Of a stretch of 16,151 nucleotides of DNA, positions 9,200 to 16,151 are shown piece after piece; position 1 is the first letter of the stretch, and each line of letters opens with the position of its first letter. The notes below the pieces were generated by a model. That model was given only the letters and a program-made list of their open reading frames with translations, was not told the DNA's origin and did not search any database. This DNA comes from Oculatellaceae cyanobacterium bins.114. GTDB lineage: Bacteria > Cyanobacteriota > Cyanobacteriia > Elainellales > Elainellaceae. The stretch spans positions 1-16,151 of the forward strand of contig JANRJA010000223.1 in the NCBI GenBank assembly GCA_033764315.1. Direction: 5' to 3'. The position numbers and the translations under genes are program-made.

Positions 9200-9775
9200 T
9201 TATAGAAATATCTGAGCTATTGAGACGCTGAATCCTGGAAGCAAAGGGGATGTGAGACTATCCTCACTGAAGAGAGTTGCAGCCAGTTGCAATTGAGCAT
9301 CAGCACGACGATAAACCTCTAGCGATCGCAGTTGCCAGTTGACAATCCAGTATTCTTGAACTCCATGCAGGGAATACAGTTTGAGTTTGACTTCCTTATC
9401 TCGCTGTTCGTTTAGTTCTCCAGGTGAGAGCACTTCAACCATCAACTCAGGAGCAACGATCAGGTGTCCTAATTCGTCAATGCCGTTGGTCAACCTTTCT
9501 CGGCTAACCCAAACGACATCTGGGATCACTGCATCGGTAGGGGTAAAAATTACGCCCGGAGATTGGAAAGCACTTCCTGCACCACTCATTTCTGACCAAA
9601 TTTCTAGACGAACGTGCAGTTTACCTGCTGCGCCTTGATGGCGAATGTGGGGAGCACGAGTCACAAACAACTCTCCATCAATAATTTCATAGCGTTTCCA
9701 ACCGCCATCGTCAGGCATCGCATCGAGATCACGAGTTGTCCATCGAATCGATTTGGAAACCATAGGATTGATCAT
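9200..9775 (-). CDS. Uma2 family (DUF820) PD-(D/E)xK endonuclease-like protein
   Basis: 'RYEIIDGEL', 'PHIRHQ', 'VIPDVVW', 'APELMVEVLSP', 'KLKLY..HGVQEYWIV', 'SPLLPGF'. Start is uncertain (9763, 9775 or 9805). Confidence 0.93.
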   Translation of the reverse strand: MINPMVSKSIRWTTRDLDAMPDDGGWKRYEIIDGELFVTRAPHIRHQGAAGKLHVRLEIWSEMSGAGSAFQSPGVIFTPTDAVIPDVVWVSRERLTNGIDELGHLIVAPELMVEVLSPGELNEQRDKEVKLKLYSLHGVQEYWIVNWQLRSLEVYRRADAQLQLAATLFSEDSLTSPLLPGFSVSIAQIFL

Positions 9776-10136
9776 TGAACCTGTTTTTAGTGTAAGCGAT
9801 CGCATTGGATCACGATGGCCCTGGTTAGTTCTACAATTGGCTGAGACGGAGCCGAGTTTAGAAGTAGAACGATGTGATGTTTAGCGGTAAGTCTCCTGAA
9901 GAATGAAGAACAATGCGCCTCACGGGAGAGCTATCACATCAAAGGTTCTGATCAGAAGATAGTGTTTGGAAACCAAAGTATTCAATTCTTTGTAAAAATC
10001 AGTTTTAGTTACATAATTCATTCTGTCATTAATAAATGAAACACAAAGTTTTACTCTTTAAACCAAATGATCGCTTCAAACTTCTGCAATTTCAGTCTAA
10101 TCTGTATTAAAACGATATTTGTCTTAGTACAGATGA

Positions 10137-10604
10137 ATGATTATGAGAGATAGGAATATTATTGACCTCAATCGAGAGTATTTAATCAAGCAGAGCGAAA
10201 TGTTGCAAGCCATTATTAGCCGTATGGCGAGCAACTCATTAAGCATTAAACAATTAGCAATAACAATTTGGACAACACTAATAAGTTTTGGTTTTACTAA
10301 TAAAGCAAAATTTCTATTTCTATTGGCAATTCTTTCATTGATACTCTTAATTTTTTTGGATGGATATTATTTATACCTAGAGAAACGTTTCCGAAGTAGT
10401 TTCAACCAGCTTAGTAATATACTTTGTAACTTTAGTGAAAGGGCTTTAGAGGAGTTTGAATCTGTTGAAGGAAATTTTATTTCATTGAATCGAATTAGCA
10501 GAAAACAAATTTTGCAATTGTATACAAAATCTCTAGCTTCCCTCGCAAATATCCCTTACTTAGCAGCCTTAATAATTACGTTATCAATTCTATTAGCAAC
10601 ATAA
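10137..10604 (+). CDS. Small membrane protein (~3 TM segments), candidate effector of the neighbouring TIR locus
   Basis: 'EMLQAIISRMASNSLSIKQLAITIW' helix-TM, 'FLFLLAILSLILLIFLDGYYLYLEKRFR', and a C-terminal hydrophobic helix 'IPYLAALIITLSILLAT'. The effector role is inference. Confidence 0.8.
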   Translation: MIMRDRNIIDLNREYLIKQSEMLQAIISRMASNSLSIKQLAITIWTTLISFGFTNKAKFLFLLAILSLILLIFLDGYYLYLEKRFRSSFNQLSNILCNFSERALEEFESVEGNFISLNRISRKQILQLYTKSLASLANIPYLAALIITLSILLAT

Positions 10605-10607
10605 TTT

Positions 10608-12773
10608 TTATGCAGAGTACCTTTTGATAGTCTCCGACAAAGCTTTTAGAGGATCTGGATTACGGTTATTCAAATCAACCCACCCATATCCTTGTAAATT
10701 CGGTGGAACTAACGGACGCTCTCCTCTGGAACGAAGAATTACAGGAATGATAGGATAATTTTTGTTCAGTCTGCTTTGTGTAGAAATATCTTTCCTTATA
10801 AATGCGTCTATTTCTCTTCTTTGCCAAGGACCAATATTGTTCTTACTAATAAAAACAACTGCTGTTCTAAAAATATCACTCTCAATGAATTCTTCCAATC
10901 TTTGCTGCCAAACTTCTCCAGGTTGCAGTTCATTAACATCCATCCAAACTGCAACACCTTGTTGATATAGCTGTTCTGCGATCTTTTCTACTCTTTTTTT
11001 ATCTTTTCTGTTATATGAAAGAAAAGCCCCAAACTTAAAACAGATGAGTCTCTGATTATACTTTTCCTGAATTTTACTTCGGCGACTTTGACCAAGATTA
11101 CTCACTTTCTCGAATAGTTCATCCAGGTCTTTATATGGCACTTTACTAAGAATGTCATTTATGATTCCAGGACCAATATAAGTATCACTAAAGATACGAA
11201 CTAGTTCCTCATATTTTGCTGTATTGATATCGAGGGAAGATTGCTCTAAGACTTTAGTACTTTCGGCTTCAGTTTCGTGATTTTCTTCTGGGACAATCTT
11301 AAATTCCAAGGGATTAACCCATTGAATTTGGTTGAGTTTTAACTTCTCCTGAAGTAATGGGGAACAATCAGGAGCAATGATAAAAGCTATGTTATTTGCT
11401 TGACCTGACGAATTCATTCCTTGTGGTTCAACTAACTCTAGCCGTTTGGTGAACTCGTCTGCGTATCTGCTTAAAATCTCATAGTTTCTAGCTCCTCCAT
11501 ATGCACTTGCAACACAGTGACCATTTTTAAAGAGTTTTGCATAGCAATTAAAAGTGTGATCTTTTGCTCTTAAAGATTCAAACTTTATCTCATAATTATT
11601 ACTATCCCGTATATATACACGCCACACCTGCTCGCATATTTCTTTAATTAATGTTGAAAGCTCATTAGGGGTTCCTTCAAAAAAACGTTCTGATTTATCC
11701 TCAAAATATCTACCATATATCTCACGTACTATACCAGCATAATCTCTACAAAAATCACTAAGGAACTTTTTGCTATCAGGGTTGTCAAGCCTTATACTCT
11801 CAATTTCTCTATATGCTTCTTCAAACCGATCATATGTTCCATAAGCTCCCCTGATACGCTGATTAATTTTATTTTTAATTCCTTCAAATTCATTTTTATG
11901 ACCTGCCACTAAATTGACTACTGATTGAGAAACGCGTCTCTCTAGAGCTCTGTCTGATCCAATAAATTTTTTTACAATTTCTGATGTTCCAGCTAAATAC
12001 ATCATTAATCGAATTTCATCTTTATACTCTCGATATATATCATTCAATAAGCTTTTAAATATAGATTTAAGCTGTCCATGTTCATCCCCCTTTAGAGCAT
12101 CATCTAATTCATCAACTAAATAAACAAAAGTGTATTCAGATCTCATCTCTGATATCAAGCTGATGATATGAAAAAGAACTTCCTGAGGTTGATAATTAGA
12201 ACTAATATCTGCGAAAGATCTATTAAATCTTGGTTGAAAAACCATCTCGAATCTCTCTGCATCTATTAGGATTTGAGCCCCATCATTTCCAAATAATTCC
12301 TTCAAAACAGAAGTGGCTACACCTCGAATATCAGAAATACACAACATTTTCCAAAGAGTTTCAGCTAAAATCTTGGAATAGAATTTAATTCCAAAGCTTT
12401 GGCTGTTACTTACAGAAAGTAGTTTTGAAAGATCAAAATAAACAACAATAGCTTTTTTAGAATATCTTGGACTTACTCTGATTAGTTCTTGTAAATAATG
12501 TAAAAGAGAAGTTTTACCACTACCTGCAACGGCAGCAATAAATCTAAACGTAAAAATACCTTTATTAAAACAGTAGTTTAAGTCATCAACTAATAAACCT
12601 TCTAAAGTAGAAATACTTTGTCTAGATAGGCTATTGGCAGTTGTAAACTCAGAACCCGTTCCTTGTGATTGTACAGTTCGATCGACCCAAATATCTGGAA
12701 TAAAATCTTTACCTCCACTAACATCTCTAAGAAAACCTTCTATGAATTGGCTGTTTTCTGGTATCTCATTCAT
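10608..12773 (-). CDS. P-loop (AAA+-like) ATPase - REase-fold-like segment - ComEA-type helix-hairpin-helix - TIR domain fusion protein
   Basis: Walker A AVAGSGKTS (~12510-12536), Walker B FVYLVDELD (12102-12128), 'MYLAGT' and 'ALERRV'. HhH 'LDINTAKYEEL...IGPG...PYKDLDEL..KV.NLG' (~11060-11234). TIR 'FLSYNRKDK...GVAVWMD..ELQPG..W...WQRRE...IIPVIL...P.L....WVDL' (~10611-11033). ATG at 12773 lies 2 nt after the upstream stop; the ORF track extends to 12788. Confidence 0.88.
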   Translation of the reverse strand: MNEIPENSQFIEGFLRDVSGGKDFIPDIWVDRTVQSQGTGSEFTTANSLSRQSISTLEGLLVDDLNYCFNKGIFTFRFIAAVAGSGKTSLLHYLQELIRVSPRYSKKAIVVYFDLSKLLSVSNSQSFGIKFYSKILAETLWKMLCISDIRGVATSVLKELFGNDGAQILIDAERFEMVFQPRFNRSFADISSNYQPQEVLFHIISLISEMRSEYTFVYLVDELDDALKGDEHGQLKSIFKSLLNDIYREYKDEIRLMMYLAGTSEIVKKFIGSDRALERRVSQSVVNLVAGHKNEFEGIKNKINQRIRGAYGTYDRFEEAYREIESIRLDNPDSKKFLSDFCRDYAGIVREIYGRYFEDKSERFFEGTPNELSTLIKEICEQVWRVYIRDSNNYEIKFESLRAKDHTFNCYAKLFKNGHCVASAYGGARNYEILSRYADEFTKRLELVEPQGMNSSGQANNIAFIIAPDCSPLLQEKLKLNQIQWVNPLEFKIVPEENHETEAESTKVLEQSSLDINTAKYEELVRIFSDTYIGPGIINDILSKVPYKDLDELFEKVSNLGQSRRSKIQEKYNQRLICFKFGAFLSYNRKDKKRVEKIAEQLYQQGVAVWMDVNELQPGEVWQQRLEEFIESDIFRTAVVFISKNNIGPWQRREIDAFIRKDISTQSRLNKNYPIIPVILRSRGERPLVPPNLQGYGWVDLNNRNPDPLKALSETIKRYSA

Positions 12774-12775
12774 GC

Positions 12776-13384
12776 TTAATCCACCCAATGAATTAAATCG
12801 TCTTCTTCTCCTTTTGATATAGATATTTTCTCAAGAGATTTCAATTTATTAAAATACTCTTCCCATGTTTCACGGTTTACATTTAGTCCTTTATCTTGTT
12901 GAAATAAGCGGTAAATATCCTGTTTAGAGATTGCGACAACGCCTTTGATTTCCTGACGTTTTTTCTCTTCAAAATATAATTCCTTGAAATTCTTGGAAAA
13001 CTCTTCAAAGTCTATTTCGTAAAAACGAAATTCTGATTGACCTGCCTTGTTAAAACAATTCAAGACGCCGTTTAAAACTTTAAATACCTTCTTTTTGTCT
13101 GACTCAAATCTATAGTTTGTAGCTGACAAGCCTGATATTAGAGAATCAATACCATTACTTGTAATCAAAATCTGGCTGTTTCTACCAGCTTCAATTAATT
13201 CCTTCTTCAGCAGAGATGTGTATGCAGATTCAATCTTTTTCTCAGGCAAACCTTTGTTATCGCGCAATAGTGCCTTCTTTACAGTGCCTTTAGTAGCTGT
13301 CCCTTTTGTTGATTTTCCTTCTTCTCTTAGATGAGAAAAAGTATAAAGCAGGTAGAGTAATTCTTCATTTGAAAGATCAAACAT
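12776..13384 (-). CDS. Hypothetical 202-aa Lys-rich protein, probable tandem winged-helix domains
   Basis: AGGAG Shine-Dalgarno 5 nt before the ATG (13390-13394). N-terminal 'IESAYTSLLKKELIE....ILITSNGIDSL' is a wHTH wing/ITxxG pattern. C-terminal 'ISKQDIYRLF...VNRETWEEYFNKL....KISISKG' is a second wHTH-like pattern. Confidence 0.75.
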   Translation of the reverse strand: MFDLSNEELLYLLYTFSHLREEGKSTKGTATKGTVKKALLRDNKGLPEKKIESAYTSLLKKELIEAGRNSQILITSNGIDSLISGLSATNYRFESDKKKVFKVLNGVLNCFNKAGQSEFRFYEIDFEEFSKNFKELYFEEKKRQEIKGVVAISKQDIYRLFQQDKGLNVNRETWEEYFNKLKSLEKISISKGEEDDLIHWVD

Positions 13385-13600
13385 AAAATCTCCTGATATA
13401 GCCTCTATGGAAGATTATTACAATTGAAAAATATCAACTGTACTTTCTAAAATGCAAGAAGATAACACTTGCAATATAATTTGTCTTGAGTAGAATAAAT
13501 TGAATTTAAGTTTATCAAAGACAACATTTTTGCAGAAGCGATATCTAGACTTCTAAAAATTCTACATTAGTCTTATCTGATTAGGATAAGATATTTTTTC

Positions 13601-13632
13601 TGTCAGTGTGTGATCATAATCACACACTGACA
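13601..13632. promoter_or_regulatory. Perfect 14-bp inverted repeat containing a consensus CRP-type box TGTGA-N6-TCACA
   Basis: tgtcagtgtgtgat-cata-atcacacactgaca, with TGTGA(tcataa)TCACA at 13609-13624. It lies upstream of the wHTH-ATPase-TIR operon. Confidence 0.6.
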
Positions 13633-13861
13633 AGCCTAAATTAACTCATTAACGTTACATAAACATAATTACTATAGATGCTTCAAGCTAACTTGCTTTT
13701 ATTTTGAGGCTTACCTTATCATCCACCTTCCTATTCTAATCAACAGATTTCTCCATCAAAAAAAAAGAAGCTTTAGAGCTAACTCCAAACTGTTCTCTAT
13801 GGCATTGTTTCCTATTCCTTCTGTTTGCTATCCATTGCTTCTACATTACAGTGCAAAAATT

Positions 13862-13896
13862 GTAAGGTGTGTTGCAGCTTTGCTGAACACAGCACC
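13862..13896. repeat. Degenerate REP-like hairpin
   Basis: gtaaggtgtgttgcagc-ttt-gctgaacacagcacc is an imperfect stem-loop with a GTA(A)G leader. Confidence 0.4.
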
Positions 13897-14103
13897 AATC
13901 CTACGATTAGTTTGAATTATTGACGTAAGCGATCGCGATGCCAGTTTGATGGGTTGCACTGAATGTAATTACGAATAGTCAATAATCGTGGGTTTAGTTG
14001 CTATTACTGCTGGTATTGGGTGTTGAGACGTTTATTTATGCTGACCTGGCAAAGGGGCGATAACATAAACATAAGTTCACTTCTGTCACTAGACTGAGAA
14101 GTT

Positions 14104-14475
14104 ATGTTACCCATCTCAAGCGAACAAATGGCAGCCTATCGTGCCTCGGCACTCAAGCGATATCAAGACCAACAAGAGCACCTGCGCGATCGCCATCAGC
14201 TTGGTTTAGCTGTGGCGAGACAAGCGGCTGATCTATTGAAGCAAAACTTTAAGGCTAGAAAAGTCGTTTTGTTTGGCTCGATGCTGTCATTTGACTTAAT
14301 TCATGAACGCTCTGATGTAGATCTAGCCGTTTGGGGTCTAGCTCCGCAAGATTACTATCGAGCGGTAGGGTGTCTTCTGGCTTTACAACCTGGAATCTTG
14401 ATCGATTTAGTGGAAGTAGAATCGGCTCCTACTCGTTTGTTGACGGAAATTGAAGCATCAGGACTAGTGCTGTGA
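14104..14475 (+). CDS. Minimal nucleotidyltransferase (MNT/MntA-like antitoxin)
   Basis: 'VVLFGS-x10-DVDLAV' (GSx10DxD) and 'IDLV'. Stop overlaps the next start (GTGA). Confidence 0.92.
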   Translation: MLPISSEQMAAYRASALKRYQDQQEHLRDRHQLGLAVARQAADLLKQNFKARKVVLFGSMLSFDLIHERSDVDLAVWGLAPQDYYRAVGCLLALQPGILIDLVEVESAPTRLLTEIEASGLVL

Positions 14476-14957
14476 AACCCAATGTGCTGGTTTTGGCAGT
14501 TCGGATTCGAGCAGAGTTAAGCGAGATTCATCAAGTAGTGGAACGTGCTCAACGCTTATTAGCTAAAGCGATCGCATCAAATGATGCAGATTATTATGAT
14601 GGAATTGCCCTAAATCTGCACAGTTTTTACACCGCCATTGAGCGAATTTTAGAAGATATTGCCAGAGAAATTGATGGTGCTATTCCCACAGGACAAAATT
14701 CGCATCGCGACTTGCTAATTCAAATGTCTGCTGAAATTCCGAATAGTCGTCCCCCTGTCATTCAACGCCAATCCCGTTACTGCTTAGATGAGTATCGAGG
14801 TTTACGGCATGTCATCCGAAATGTTTACACCTTCAATCTAAAGCCAGAAAGATTGCAAGAACTGGTCACTGCCCTACCAGATTGTTATCAATTTCTAGTC
14901 CACGATCTAACCGACTTTTGCCAATTTTTAGAAGCACTAACAGAATCTGACTGTTAA
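14472..14957 (+). CDS. HEPN domain (HepT-like) ribonuclease toxin
   Basis: 'ALNLHSFYTAIERILE.IA..ID...P.G..SHRDLL.QM', 'LDEYRGLRHVIRNVY'. Translationally coupled to the MNT gene. Confidence 0.88.
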   Translation: MKPNVLVLAVRIRAELSEIHQVVERAQRLLAKAIASNDADYYDGIALNLHSFYTAIERILEDIAREIDGAIPTGQNSHRDLLIQMSAEIPNSRPPVIQRQSRYCLDEYRGLRHVIRNVYTFNLKPERLQELVTALPDCYQFLVHDLTDFCQFLEALTESDC

Positions 14958-14996
14958 CGATAAACCATTGACCCCTAACGATTAACCGTTGACCAT
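14948..14996. repeat. STRR-type heptamer tandem repeat (7 units)
   Basis: tgactgt-taacgat-aaaccat-tgacccc-taacgat-taaccgt-tgaccat, same family as 2584-2618. Confidence 0.7.
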
Positions 14997-15007
14997 CTAC
15001 ACGCACT

Positions 15008-15925: not shown

Positions 15926-16016
15926 TCTGTTCACCATTTACGAAGTCTACCTCCTTATACCAATCAGATGTGAGGATGCGCCAAATCAATCACCCCCTGT
16001 AGTCCCCCTTGGCAAG

Positions 16017-16151
16017 CAGGGTGGTTTCATTTAGGTGGAGGAAAGCCTTGGGTAAGGATCGCGTAAACCTGTTTGAGTTGGTTGGTGAGGGCACGCACTC
16101 CTTGAGGAATGGTGCGGAAGGCAAGCTGGCGGACAATGGAGATGAGAAAAC
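16017..16151 (-). mobile_element. Probable right end of an ISAs1-family insertion sequence: terminal CAGGG IR plus 3' end of transposase (16027 to window edge)
   Basis: The minus-strand frame is open from the window edge: FLISIVRQLAFRTIPQGVRALTNQLKQVYAILTQGFPPPK*. Its TGA (16027-16029) sits inside the terminus CAGGGTGGTTTCA (16017-16029). CAGGG ends and a stop within the IR fit ISAs1 as I recall it. Confidence 0.6.

What the first reader, a model, noticed from the sequence alone, without database searches (positions are those of the whole stretch)
10137..13384. Candidate undescribed three-gene defence system: wHTH protein + ATPase-HhH-TIR fusion + convergent 3-TM effector
Seen: three tightly packed genes of shared low GC. 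The wHTH stop is 2 nt from the ATPase ATG, and the ATPase-TIR stop (10608-10610) is 3 nt from the stop of the convergent membrane gene (10602-10604). Established: bacterial TIR domains act as NADases or signal synthases in Thoeris, CBASS, Pycsar, SPARTA and Avs/NLR-like systems once oligomerised, and small TM proteins are common effectors. Inference: the wHTH and HhH domains sense DNA, the ATPase oligomerises, and the TIR either depletes NAD+ or makes an ADPR-derived signal for the TM protein. I do not recognise this gene set as a named system.
Basis: partly seen in the sequence, partly recalled or inferred. Interest (0 to 1): 0.9.

Follow-up and report, generated by a model that had tools for sequence, protein, structure and literature searches.

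The report
wHTH, Orc-like ATPase-TIR, membrane gene island
A horizontally acquired cyanobacterial gene island pairs a DNA-binding protein with an Orc/Cdc6-like ATPase that seems to have swapped a nuclease for a TIR immune domain and sits next to a membrane protein normally partnered with TIR proteins, so it is probably an untested anti-phage system.

Summary
Three tightly packed genes lie at the stated coordinates in a 4-kb low-GC island. A same-genus genome lacks the island.

The gene calls are right and can be sharpened:
- Gene A (12776-13384, minus) is a tandem winged-helix protein.
- Gene B (10608-12773, minus) has an Orc/Cdc6-like AAA+ ATPase, a restriction-endonuclease-like domain, an HhH domain and a C-terminal TIR.
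- Gene C (10137-10604, plus) is a small membrane protein that matches PADLOC candidate PDC-M50A.

A and B form a rare, strictly linked pair found only in cyanobacteria in these searches. A lies directly upstream of B in 25 of 28 other loci. Most B proteins have no TIR. All 18 TIR-less rows keep a D...ExK motif and all 10 TIR rows have lost it. The two groups are separated by one branch with 100/100 support, which fits an effector swap from nuclease to TIR.

Gene C is not part of the core pair. It adjoins ATPase-TIR genes in three genera and is missing from three other TIR loci. Elsewhere its family sits beside ThsB-like TIR genes.

My reading is a DNA-sensing ATPase defence module with a Thoeris-like TIR-to-membrane output. 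It is a new variant of a class described only by comparative genomics, and no function has been tested.

The parts
12776..13384 (-). Gene A: 202-aa tandem winged-helix protein (P0002). Its stop lies 2 nt before the start of gene B.
10608..12773 (-). Gene B: 721-aa Orc/Cdc6-like ATPase, degenerate REase-like domain, HhH and TIR (P0001).
   Evidence: AF2 model with pLDDT 82.5. Family alignment A3.
11694..12773 (-). B residues 1-360: N-terminal segment plus AAA+ ATPase. Walker A is AGSGKT at 83-88 and Walker B is VDELDD at 220-225.
11304..11594 (-). B residues 394-490: beta-beta-beta-alpha-beta-alpha-beta domain, read as an inactivated PD-(D/E)xK (REase-like) domain. It carries N409, G427 and R429 where TIR-less relatives have D, E and K.
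   Evidence: Secondary structure of the model. Residue table. Atlas feature leads for the TIR-less homologue point to Mrr_cat, Mrr_cat_2, PDDEXK_3 and DUF234 clusters at scores 0.79-0.81, which are leads only. No significant sequence match in the PDB. hhalign against Mrr_cat gives 0.3% probability. The fold was not searched on its own.
11040..11237 (-). B residues 513-578: helix-hairpin-helix region, ComEA-like, beginning DINTA.
   Evidence: Pfam HHH_3 hits 13 of 28 family members (best E 5.1e-5) and HHH_6 hits 3 of 28. P0001 itself has no hit at E<=0.1. Helices at 521-573 in the model.
10611..11039 (-). B residues 579-721: TIR domain with a WQRRE motif; the putative catalytic Glu is E654.
10137..10604 (+). 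Gene C: 155-aa small membrane protein (P0003) of the PDC-M50A family, convergent with gene B. The two stop codons are 3 nt apart.
   Evidence: PADLOC PDC-M50A E 6e-19. 52 homologue clusters. Family alignment A6 shows that the N-terminal 21 residues are conserved, which supports the long start. Homologues adjoin the ATPase-TIR genes of Crinalium and Phormidesmis. Elsewhere homologues adjoin ThsB-like TIR genes.
9806..14103 (.). Low-GC island that holds the three genes and about 720 nt of non-coding DNA upstream of gene A.
   Evidence: GC is 0.30-0.37 in the island and 0.42-0.53 in all other windows. In same-genus genome G401 the left flank matches at 81% identity up to window position 9804, and the island has no match there. 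Neither the B family nor the C family was found in G401 or in four same-family genomes.

Best explanation
The island carries a cyanobacterial two-gene conflict (probably anti-phage or anti-plasmid) module in a rare variant whose effector has been swapped.

Core module:
- Gene A is a tandem winged-helix DNA-binding protein.
- Gene B is an Orc/Cdc6-type AAA+ ATPase followed by a restriction-endonuclease-like domain and a non-specific DNA-binding HhH domain.
- In most family members the complex would load or oligomerise on target DNA in an ATP-dependent way and cut it with the D...ExK domain.

This window's clade:
- The nuclease triad is lost and a TIR domain is fused to the C-terminus.
- DNA-triggered assembly of the ATPase would instead bring TIR domains together.
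- The TIRs would then turn over NAD+.

Role of gene C:
- It belongs to a membrane-protein family that is otherwise paired with ThsB-like TIR proteins (PADLOC candidate PDC-M50).
- The TIR product is therefore most likely an ADPR-derived signal that activates this membrane protein, as in Thoeris systems with membrane effectors, and stops the infected cell.

Shown here: domain identities, A-B linkage, the TIR versus D/E/K anticorrelation, the TIR association of the C family, and recent acquisition of the island.

Inferred: any defence role, DNA sensing, nuclease activity of the TIR-less forms, signal production, and activation of gene C.
For: 1. A-B linkage. A P0002 homologue ends 2-4 nt before the B start in 25 of 28 other B loci. 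The three exceptions have a frameshifted B (L017) or no upstream sequence (L018, L032). All-against-all clustering of 466 ORFs found no third conserved gene.

3. Effector swap. 18 of 18 TIR-less B proteins have D, E and K at the positions of P0001 residues 409, 427 and 429. 10 of 10 TIR-bearing proteins have none of the three (N/K/R/G/M, G and R). The residues fall in strands 409-416 and 419-428 of a predicted beta-beta-beta-alpha-beta-alpha-beta domain. The TIR rows are one side of a branch with 100/100 support.

4. Cassette exchange. Metagenome loci L023 (TIR form) and L029 (TIR-less form) are 99.8% identical over 5846 nt. Identity drops to about 50% from a point inside gene A, about 150 nt before its stop. 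The 3' end of A and all of B were therefore swapped as a unit at one chromosomal site.

5. TIR. TIR_2 at E 3.6e-21, with WQxxE in 10 of 10 TIR-bearing members.

6. Gene C matches PDC-M50A at E 6e-19.
- Of its 8 closer homologue loci from 401 genomes, 6 have an intact TIR or ThsB-like TIR gene next door (L036-L039, L041, L042).
- One more (L035/L070) has a remnant of such a gene.
- Four of those neighbours (L036, L037, L038, L041) match PDC-M50B at 1.1e-62 to 5.1e-51, and L042 matches at 7.4e-10.
- In L036 the arrangement is tail-to-tail with a 12-nt gap, as in the window.

7. C homologues carry protein accession numbers consecutive with those of the ATPase-TIR homologues in Crinalium PCC 9333 and Phormidesmis 146-35. 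In Crinalium the locus tags are also consecutive (3422, 3423).

8. Mobility. The island is low in GC. It is absent from a same-genus genome whose left flank is conserved. The B family occurs in only 8 of 401 sampled Cyanobacteriota genomes. The window flanks are an Uma2 gene and an MNT/HepT toxin-antitoxin pair.

9. Published context.
- Membrane effectors activated by TIR-made cADPR isomers are shown for Thoeris types V and VII (bioRxiv 10.64898/2025.12.03.692087; sections 5 and 6 and search passages read).
- Orc/Cdc6 ATPases with REase or iREase domains, multi-wHTH partners and TIR fusions are proposed as conflict systems in PMC10853773 (section 22 read).
Against: - No experiment bears on any member of the family.
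- The nuclease assignment rests on a motif, predicted secondary structure and weak language-model leads. A profile search of PDB sequences found only noise (best E 0.37). hhalign against an Mrr_cat alignment gave 0.3% probability. The domain's fold was never searched alone.
- Gene C is absent from three other TIR-bearing loci with enough sequence: L006, L023/L024 and L025. The TIR form can therefore exist without it.
- P0001's TIR is of the TIR_2 type. It does not match the ThsB-like PDC-M50B model at E<=1.
- Neighbourhoods of the module are mostly housekeeping genes. Of 92 neighbour ORFs, only a few hit restriction-modification, PD-T4-6 or CAST transposition models. Enrichment in defence islands is therefore not shown.
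- Yirmiya et al. removed TIRs fused into Avs proteins from their Thoeris set because they judged them likely NAD+ depleters rather than signal makers (section 5 of that preprint). This counts against assuming a signalling role for a fused TIR.
- The orientation of the C gene in Crinalium and Phormidesmis was not seen. Only the consecutive accession numbers were.
Confidence: 0.55

Rival explanations
1. The ATPase-TIR protein with gene A is a self-contained abortive-infection system in which the TIR is the terminal NAD+-depleting effector, as in TIR-bearing Avs, SPARTA or CBASS effectors. Gene C would be an unrelated neighbour, or the orphaned half of a separate PDC-M50/Thoeris-like pair that landed in the same island.
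For: TIR-bearing loci L006, L023/L024 and L025 have no C homologue and no multi-TM ORF within 2 kb. P0001 does not match PDC-M50B. The C family occurs in four genomes that lack the B family (G059, G089, G376, G244). Orphaning of such pairs does happen: G059 keeps the TM gene beside only a 40-residue remnant of the ThsB-like gene. Yirmiya et al. treat TIRs fused into Avs proteins as likely NAD+ depleters (section 5 read).
Against: The same adjacency recurs in three genera, judged from consecutive accession numbers. The proteins there are only 42-45% (B) and 61-64% (C) identical to the window's, which is unlikely for a chance neighbour. The stops are 3 nt apart and the tail-to-tail layout copies that of TM/ThsB-like pairs. 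P0001 lies outside the crown group of TIR forms (its position relative to L006 is unresolved), while P0005 and P0008 lie inside it. Linkage in the ancestor of the TIR forms, followed by losses, therefore fits.
Confidence: 0.25
2. The A-B pair is not an immune system. It would be a DNA-transaction module of a mobile element or of the chromosome, for example a TnsC/TnsA-like transposition regulator plus nuclease, or a replication or partition factor. The TIR variant would be a side branch.
Against: No transposase, integrase or replication gene is conserved next to the pair. The distribution is patchy: 8 of 401 genomes, and none of five close relatives. One clade acquired a TIR domain and a TIR-associated membrane gene. 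Alleles are swapped at one site between near-identical strains, which fits diversifying immune loci better than core DNA metabolism.
Confidence: 0.1
3. The locus is a decaying remnant. The nuclease-dead B protein with its added TIR would no longer be functional, and the arrangement would have no current role.
For: The nuclease motif is lost. Some family members are clearly broken: L017 and L030 are frameshifted, and L029 is interrupted by four copies of a 121-nt repeat. P0001 has the longest terminal branch, 0.95.
Against: All three window ORFs are intact. Walker A and B, the TIR WQxxE motif and 49 invariant columns are kept across 28 sequences. The TIR clade has 9 distinct intact members.
Confidence: 0.05

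Closest known systems
Orc/CDC6-family ATPase conflict systems with REase/iREase domains and multi-wHTH (DndG/SspB-like) partners, some fused to TIR (comparative genomics only; PMC10853773, section 22 read)
   Same: An Orc/Cdc6-type AAA+ ATPase is followed by a restriction-endonuclease-like domain, which is active-looking in some members and degenerate in others. A separate protein made of several winged helices is encoded alongside. Some members carry a TIR fusion. The neighbourhoods are mobile and variable.
   Different: No HerA/FtsK, KAP NTPase or second Orc/Cdc6 gene is linked here. The B protein ends in HhH (or WD40 in P0074) rather than the C-terminal wHTH typical of Orc/Cdc6. Gene A has no detectable sequence match to SspB, DndG or DptG models (no PADLOC hit at E<=1). 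I could not see that paper's supplementary data, so I cannot say whether this family is listed there.
PADLOC candidate PDC-M50 (TM protein A plus ThsB-like TIR protein B)
   Same: Gene C matches PDC-M50A at E 6e-19 and lies tail-to-tail with a TIR-encoding gene, as in L036.
   Different: The TIR partner here is the C-terminal domain of a 721-aa ATPase. It does not match PDC-M50B. A third gene (A) is present. PDC-M50 is a prediction. I found no paper naming it.
Thoeris systems with membrane effectors: type V (ThsB plus ThsF, DUF2270) and type VII (ThsB plus ThsH, SLATT) (bioRxiv 10.64898/2025.12.03.692087; sections 5 and 6 and passages read)
   Same: A TIR protein is encoded beside a small multi-TM protein. 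In those systems, phage-triggered TIRs make 3'cADPR or cADPR, and the molecule is toxic to cells that carry the system. The authors infer that it activates the membrane effector.
   Different: Gene C hits no DUF2270 or SLATT Pfam model at E<=1. DUF2270 was found in 0 of 201 Cyanobacteriota genomes. hhalign against cyanobacterial SLATT_1/3 proteins gives 0.2% probability. Only a language-model neighbour cluster, automatically named as a SLATT protein and scoring 0.95, points that way. The TIR here is fused to a large ATPase rather than being a stand-alone ThsB. The paper's tables were not available, so I cannot tell whether PDC-M50 corresponds to one of its 29 putative types.
TIR-bearing Avs/STAND (NLR-like) defence proteins
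   Same: A P-loop ATPase and a TIR lie in one polypeptide. The expected logic is the same: oligomerisation activates the TIR.
BREX BrxC and Ssp SspB-SspC
   Different: No other BREX or Ssp genes are linked, and no methyltransferase or sulphur-modification genes are conserved nearby.

Membership tests
Thoeris (TIR signal generator plus signal-activated effector) | TIR-domain protein with the catalytic glutamate | tested here: met
   TIR_2 E 3.6e-21. WQxxE is conserved in 10 of 10 TIR-bearing members. The identification of E654 as the catalytic Glu is recalled from other TIRs, not tested.
Thoeris (TIR signal generator plus signal-activated effector) | Adjacent effector gene of a family linked to TIR genes | tested here: met
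   Gene C matches PDC-M50A. Of its 8 closer homologue loci, 6 have intact TIR or ThsB-like neighbours and 1 has a remnant. C adjoins ATPase-TIR genes in 3 genera but is absent from 3 other TIR loci.
Thoeris (TIR signal generator plus signal-activated effector) | Stand-alone ThsB-type TIR protein | tested here: not met
   The TIR is the C-terminal 143 residues of a 721-aa ATPase. The best PADLOC ThsB hit is E 0.0054, and the only NCBIfam Thoeris hit is 14.7 bits against a cut-off of 220.
Thoeris (TIR signal generator plus signal-activated effector) | Infection-dependent production of an ADPR-derived signal that activates the effector | not testable with these tools
   Needs LC-MS of infected cells that express the TIR protein, and toxicity assays.
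PADLOC PDC-M50 | Component A (TM protein) | tested here: met
   PDLC04685 E 6e-19, and three further PDC-M50A models.
PADLOC PDC-M50 | Component B (ThsB-like TIR, PDLC04688) | tested here: not met
   P0001 gives no hit to PDC-M50B at E<=1. True partners of C homologues hit it at 1.1e-62 to 5.1e-51 (L036, L037, L038, L041) and at 7.4e-10 (L042).
Orc/CDC6-REase conflict systems (PMC10853773) | Orc/Cdc6-clade AAA+ ATPase | tested here: met
Orc/CDC6-REase conflict systems (PMC10853773) | REase or inactive REase domain after the AAA+ module | tested here: inconclusive
   D...ExK is present in 18 of 18 TIR-less members and lost in 10 of 10 TIR forms. The predicted strand and helix order fits. The Atlas leads all point to PD-(D/E)xK-clan families at 0.79-0.81. 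However, there is no significant PDB sequence hit, hhalign against Mrr_cat gives 0.3%, and the domain's fold was not searched alone.
Orc/CDC6-REase conflict systems (PMC10853773) | Multi-wHTH partner protein | tested here: met
   Two winged-helix domains in the gene A model. Kinship with DndG or SspB was not detected (no PADLOC hit).
Orc/CDC6-REase conflict systems (PMC10853773) | Linked HerA/FtsK, ASCH-REase, or second Orc/Cdc6 plus KAP NTPase gene | tested here: not met
   Only two gene clusters are conserved across 29 loci.
SLATT membrane effectors | Match to a SLATT profile | tested here: inconclusive
   No Pfam or NCBIfam hit at E<=1. hhalign of A6 against cyanobacterial SLATT_1/3 proteins gives 0.2%. 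The nearest Atlas cluster, at 0.95, is automatically named as a SLATT protein.
Avs / STAND NLR-like TIR proteins | STAND (NACHT/NB-ARC) NTPase with a repeat sensor domain | tested here: not met
Tn7-like transposition module (TnsC ATPase plus TnsA nuclease) | Conserved linkage to a transposase and transposon ends | tested here: not met
   No transposase cluster is conserved beside the pair. The TnsC likeness is in fold only.

The most novel reading that the evidence does not exclude
A Thoeris-like signalling system in which the TIR signal generator is the output domain of a DNA-loaded Orc/Cdc6-type AAA+ machine with a winged-helix partner, rather than a free ThsB. It would have arisen by replacing that machine's nuclease with a TIR and recruiting a PDC-M50A membrane effector. 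Foreign-DNA recognition by an ATPase ring would then be converted directly into an ADPR-derived second messenger that opens a membrane effector. The TIR-less sister clade would offer a natural control in which the same sensor drives DNA cleavage.
Probability: 0.3. Interest if true: 0.75.

Novelty: new variant of a known kind. Interest (0 to 1): 0.6.

Why it matters
What triggers bacterial TIR proteins is largely unknown. Here the TIR is fused to a recognisable DNA-handling sensor made of an Orc/Cdc6 ATPase, an HhH domain and a tandem wHTH partner. Close relatives carry what looks like a nuclease instead of the TIR. This is a natural experiment: one sensor with two outputs. It could show how an ATPase assembled on DNA switches on a TIR, and whether a fused TIR can still signal to a separate membrane effector. 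The family also shows how immune modules may evolve by exchanging effector cassettes at a fixed chromosomal site, as seen in L023 versus L029. It would add a lineage-specific candidate system for cyanobacteria, where experimentally tested defence systems are few (the last point is my own recollection, not from a call). If the system proves inactive, or the TIR is a plain NADase, the find is an ordinary addition to the list of ATPase-TIR fusions.

Tried and rejected
- Complex prediction of B residues 1-500 with A gave no verdict (score 0.31 against a mark of 0.32; controls not run). It counts neither way.
- Sequencing-run search for 10137-13384: none was listed and no RNA holder was listed.
- tRNA scan and Rfam at gathering threshold over the window: nothing.
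- DUF2270 (ThsF) kinship of gene C: no Pfam hit, and the family was found in 0 of 201 Cyanobacteriota genomes. I had no sequences for a profile comparison, so this stays open.
- SLATT kinship: SLATT_2 in 0 of 121 genomes. SLATT_1 and SLATT_3 proteins were found, but hhalign against the C family gave 0.2%.
- PD-(D/E)xK kinship by sequence: a profile search of PDB sequences gave only transferrin noise at E 0.37. hhalign against 18 Mrr_cat domains gave 0.3%. That alignment did place the family's D and ExK on Mrr's D and QxK, but it is not significant.
- Whole-protein fold searches did not test residues 361-578 (one search states this).
- Foldseek with the gene A model gave no match at E<=0.001 (best was SarS 1p4x at 1.9e-3). 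VIA-align was needed to show the two winged helices.
- A conserved operator upstream of gene A: 23 loci were scanned. Only the window has a long perfect palindrome, and none is shared.
- Earlier findings of this scan: four look-ups, nothing.
- Literature: no paper holds 'PDC-M50' or the Crinalium locus tags and accessions. Two further searches found no description of this gene set.
- Defence-island enrichment: PADLOC and Pfam scans of 92 neighbour ORFs showed mostly housekeeping genes. A follow-up on 10 large neighbours found one RM methyltransferase and weak mad2, mad8 and PD-T4-6 hits. I do not claim enrichment.
- A precise empty site could not be defined. In G401 the right-flank gene lies on another contig.

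Full report
**1. Observation**

- TM gene: 10137-10604 (+).
- ATPase-TIR gene: 10608-12773 (-). The ATG at 12771-12773 is supported by alignment with homologues from residue 1.
- wHTH gene: 12776-13384 (-).

The wHTH stop and the ATPase ATG are 2 nt apart. The two convergent stop codons are 3 nt apart. Every 500-nt window from 10001 to 14000 has GC 0.30-0.37, against 0.42-0.53 in all other windows. The window comes from a cyanobacterial assembly (G000, contig C124). The island lies between an Uma2-family gene (9200-9805) and an MNT/HepT toxin-antitoxin pair (14104-14957).

**2. The three proteins**

*Gene B (P0001, 721 aa).*
- It has a clear C-terminal TIR (TIR_2, residues 584-708, E 3.6e-21).
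- Walker A (83-88) and Walker B (220-225) are invariant in all 28 aligned family members.
- An HhH region (513-578, starting DINTA) gets no Pfam hit in this protein. HHH_3 hits 13 of 28 relatives, best E 5.1e-5.

*Gene C (P0003, 155 aa).* It has no Pfam or NCBIfam hit but matches four PADLOC models of the candidate component PDC-M50A, best E 6e-19.

**3. The conserved unit is two genes, not three**

- The word-based search found only seven relatives of B, all cyanobacterial where named.
- An exhaustive profile search of 1.84 billion representative proteins found 104 hits at E<=0.001 and 41 at E<=1e-30. The hits at E<=1e-30 are full-length members or pieces of this family; the weaker rows mostly match only the HhH end of the profile.
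- Pattern scans fetched 18 genome loci and 10 metagenome loci with a B gene, plus one unrelated TIR hit, L033.
- tblastn finds an A homologue ending a few bases before B in 25 of these 28 loci. The exceptions are L017 (B frameshifted, upstream ORF unrelated) and L018 and L032 (contig ends).
- Gene C was found in none of them.
- Clustering all 466 ORFs of 70 aa or more from these loci gave only two clusters shared across the family.
- In a sample of 401 Cyanobacteriota genomes the B family occurs in 8, G000 included. G000 is the only TIR form among them.

**4. TIR versus nuclease motif**

Eighteen of the 28 aligned B proteins end right after the HhH (558-613 aa). Ten carry the TIR; these are 9 distinct sequences, because L005 and L023 are identical in the core.

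At the positions of P0001 residues 409, 427 and 429:
- All 18 TIR-less proteins read D, E and K (HAFDCY...FGEAKNYE).
- All 10 TIR forms read N/K/R/G/M, G and R.

In the model these residues sit in the strands at 409-416 and 419-428. From general knowledge, that is where PD-(D/E)xK nucleases place D and ExK. A maximum-likelihood tree of the core puts the ten TIR rows on one side of a branch with 100/100 support. One event therefore separates 'motif intact, no TIR' from 'motif lost, TIR present'.

I read this as replacement of a nuclease effector by a TIR. The nuclease assignment is not secured:
- A profile of the domain finds only noise among PDB sequences.
- hhalign against 18 Mrr_cat domains gives 0.3% probability. 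Its single alignment does put D on D and ExK on QxK.
- The Atlas neighbours of the TIR-less domain all point to PD-(D/E)xK-clan families (Mrr_cat, Mrr_cat_2, PDDEXK_3, DUF234), but at 0.79-0.81, which the tool rates as leads only.
- The whole-protein fold searches did not test this part.

One representative, P0074, replaces the HhH with WD40 repeats.

**5. Cassette exchange at one site**

Metagenome loci L023 (TIR form) and L029 (TIR-less form) are 99.8% identical over 5846 nt. Identity falls to about 50% from a point inside gene A, about 150 nt before its stop. The last 50 or so residues of A and the whole of B were therefore exchanged together between near-identical backgrounds.

This fits diversifying immune loci. 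It also suggests that the C-terminal winged helix of A is matched to its B partner. In the alignment, the A proteins that accompany TIR forms share a distinct C-terminal signature, although common descent could explain that as well. In L029 the B gene is interrupted by four copies of a 121-nt repeat.

**6. Gene C and TIR genes**

- C has 52 homologue clusters.
- In Crinalium PCC 9333 the C homologue is Cri9333_3423 (AFZ14251.1), next to the ATPase-TIR homologue Cri9333_3422 (AFZ14250.1).
- In Phormidesmis 146-35 the two proteins are KAM3089713.1 and KAM3089714.1. I saw consecutive accession numbers (and, for Crinalium, consecutive locus tags), not the DNA, so orientation there is unknown.
- Three other TIR-form loci lack C and lack any multi-TM ORF within 2 kb: L006 (Nostoc NIES-4103), L023/L024 and L025. 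L005 ends too soon to judge.
- C occurs in 15 of 401 sampled genomes.
- Of its 8 closer homologue loci (L035-L042), five have a ThsB_TIR (PF08937) gene next door: L036, L037, L038, L041 and L042. L038 and L039 have TIR_2 genes, and L041 has a below-threshold TIR_2 hit. L035 keeps a 40-residue remnant of a ThsB-like gene.
- Four of the ThsB-like neighbours (L036, L037, L038, L041) match PADLOC PDC-M50B at 1.1e-62 to 5.1e-51. L042 matches at 7.4e-10. PDC-M50 is therefore a TM protein plus a ThsB-like TIR.
- In L036 the two genes are tail-to-tail with a 12-nt gap, the same layout as in the window.
- The six weaker hits (L043-L048) have no TIR neighbour. One that I tested (L045) has no PDC-M50A match. 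I do not count them as family members.
- C homologues also occur in four genomes without the B family.
- A NUDIX gene accompanies C in L035 and L036.

**7. What kind of membrane protein is C?**

No DUF2270 or SLATT profile matches it. DUF2270 was found in 0 of 201 sampled Cyanobacteriota genomes. hhalign against cyanobacterial SLATT_1/3 proteins gives 0.2%. The nearest Atlas cluster, at 0.95, is automatically named as a SLATT protein. Membership of either family stays open.

**8. Mobility**

- In the same-genus genome G401 (100% complete) the left flank is conserved at 81% identity up to window position 9804.
- Nothing from 9805 to 14946 matches there.
- The next right-flank gene matches on another contig.
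- Profiles of the B and C families find nothing in G401 or in four same-family genomes, although the same kinds of query do find G000.
- Neighbourhoods of the A-B pair differ from locus to locus and are mostly housekeeping genes.
- Of 92 neighbour ORFs, type V-K TnsB, TnsC and TniQ models each hit 2. Type II methyltransferase models hit 2, and a restriction enzyme model and PD-T4-6 hit 1 each.
- From ORF sizes and duplication I infer that the transposition genes are those of L023 and L029. The call does not say which members hit.
- I do not claim enrichment in defence islands.

**9. Mechanism**

My best reading has confidence 0.55. A-B is a DNA-sensing Orc/Cdc6-type ATPase module. Its ancestral output is DNA cleavage, and in this clade the output is TIR chemistry. 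Gene C is a Thoeris-like membrane effector that responds to the TIR product.

Published work supports the parts:
- TIR-made 3'cADPR and cADPR are toxic to cells carrying type V or type VII Thoeris, whose effectors are membrane proteins (preprint 10.64898/2025.12.03.692087; sections 5 and 6 and passages read).
- Orc/Cdc6 ATPases with REase or iREase domains, multi-wHTH partners and occasional TIR fusions have been proposed as conflict systems (PMC10853773, section 22 read).

The main rival (0.25) is that the TIR is a terminal NADase and C is dispensable or unrelated. The three TIR loci without C support this rival, as does P0001's failure to match PDC-M50B. A mobile-element or DNA-metabolism role (0.1) and simple decay (0.05) are less likely. 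The prediction of A-B binding gave no verdict, and no sequencing run could be listed.

**10. Novelty**

- No PADLOC v2 model covers the A-B pair. Across 28 B proteins only TIR models and isolated weak hits appear.
- No paper in the searched library names PDC-M50 or the Crinalium genes.
- Two topical searches found no description of this gene set.
- The architecture falls within a class outlined by comparative genomics, and the C family is already a PADLOC candidate. I therefore rate this a new variant of a known kind.
- The new points are the tight cyanobacterial A-B family with HhH, the clean anticorrelation between nuclease motif and TIR, the allele swap at one site, and the recruitment of a PDC-M50A membrane gene.

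Noticed in passing
window 13601-13632: A perfect inverted repeat with 14-nt arms and a 4-nt loop (TGTCAGTGTGTGAT / ATCACACACTGACA) lies 216 nt upstream of the gene A start, in the 720-nt non-coding part of the island. No comparable palindrome is shared by the upstream regions of 23 homologous loci, so it is not a family-wide operator.
   Followed up: partly
window 14947-15000 and 15948-16030: Short dispersed repeats. The roughly 50-nt stretch between hepT and the next ORF matches about 45 places in the same-genus genome G401 at 79-87% identity. A second stretch near the window end matches several more places.
   Followed up: no
window 14104-14957: An MNT (Polbeta/NTP_transf_2) and HepT-like toxin-antitoxin pair with a 4-nt overlap lies directly right of the island. 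It has no match in same-genus genome G401.
   Followed up: no
L029 6385-6505, 6896-7016, 7833-7955, 8212-8332; L023 8340-8462: A 121-nt repeat occurs four times (in both orientations) within and after the TIR-less B gene of L029, which is split into 138-aa and 433-aa ORFs. It occurs once, downstream of B, in L023. It looks like a MITE-type element that has inactivated the gene.
   Followed up: partly
L023 / L029 1141-4802: Three ORFs of 175, 301 and 682 aa on the minus strand lie directly upstream of gene A. They are probably the ORFs that hit the TniQ, TnsC and TnsB models of type V-K CRISPR-associated transposons (2 of 92 neighbour ORFs each). The attribution to these ORFs is my inference from size and duplication.
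   Followed up: partly
L035/L070 (G059) and L036/L071 (G089): A NUDIX hydrolase gene is conserved next to the PDC-M50A-type TM gene in two genomes. In G059 the ThsB-like partner is reduced to a 40-residue remnant, while G089 keeps it intact. A NUDIX enzyme beside a TIR/TM pair could act on ADPR-type signals.
   Followed up: partly
P0074 (representative protein, 816 aa): A B-family member whose first 505 residues match the family profile but whose C-terminus is a WD40 propeller instead of HhH.
   Followed up: partly
G284:C63:8992-9582, G328:C12:3950-4582, and representatives P0096-P0100 and P0105: Open frames of 185-237 aa that cover only the C-terminal third of B (the nuclease-like domain plus HhH). 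They may be fragments, pseudogenes or stand-alone proteins.
   Followed up: no
G000 contigs C127 (39974-40294, 43051-43374), C81 (29418-29681) and C246 (5987-7980): The same genome has three other TIR-containing open frames (463, 972 and 1082 aa). It also has a locus with two SLATT-type open frames of 622 and 254 aa.
   Followed up: no
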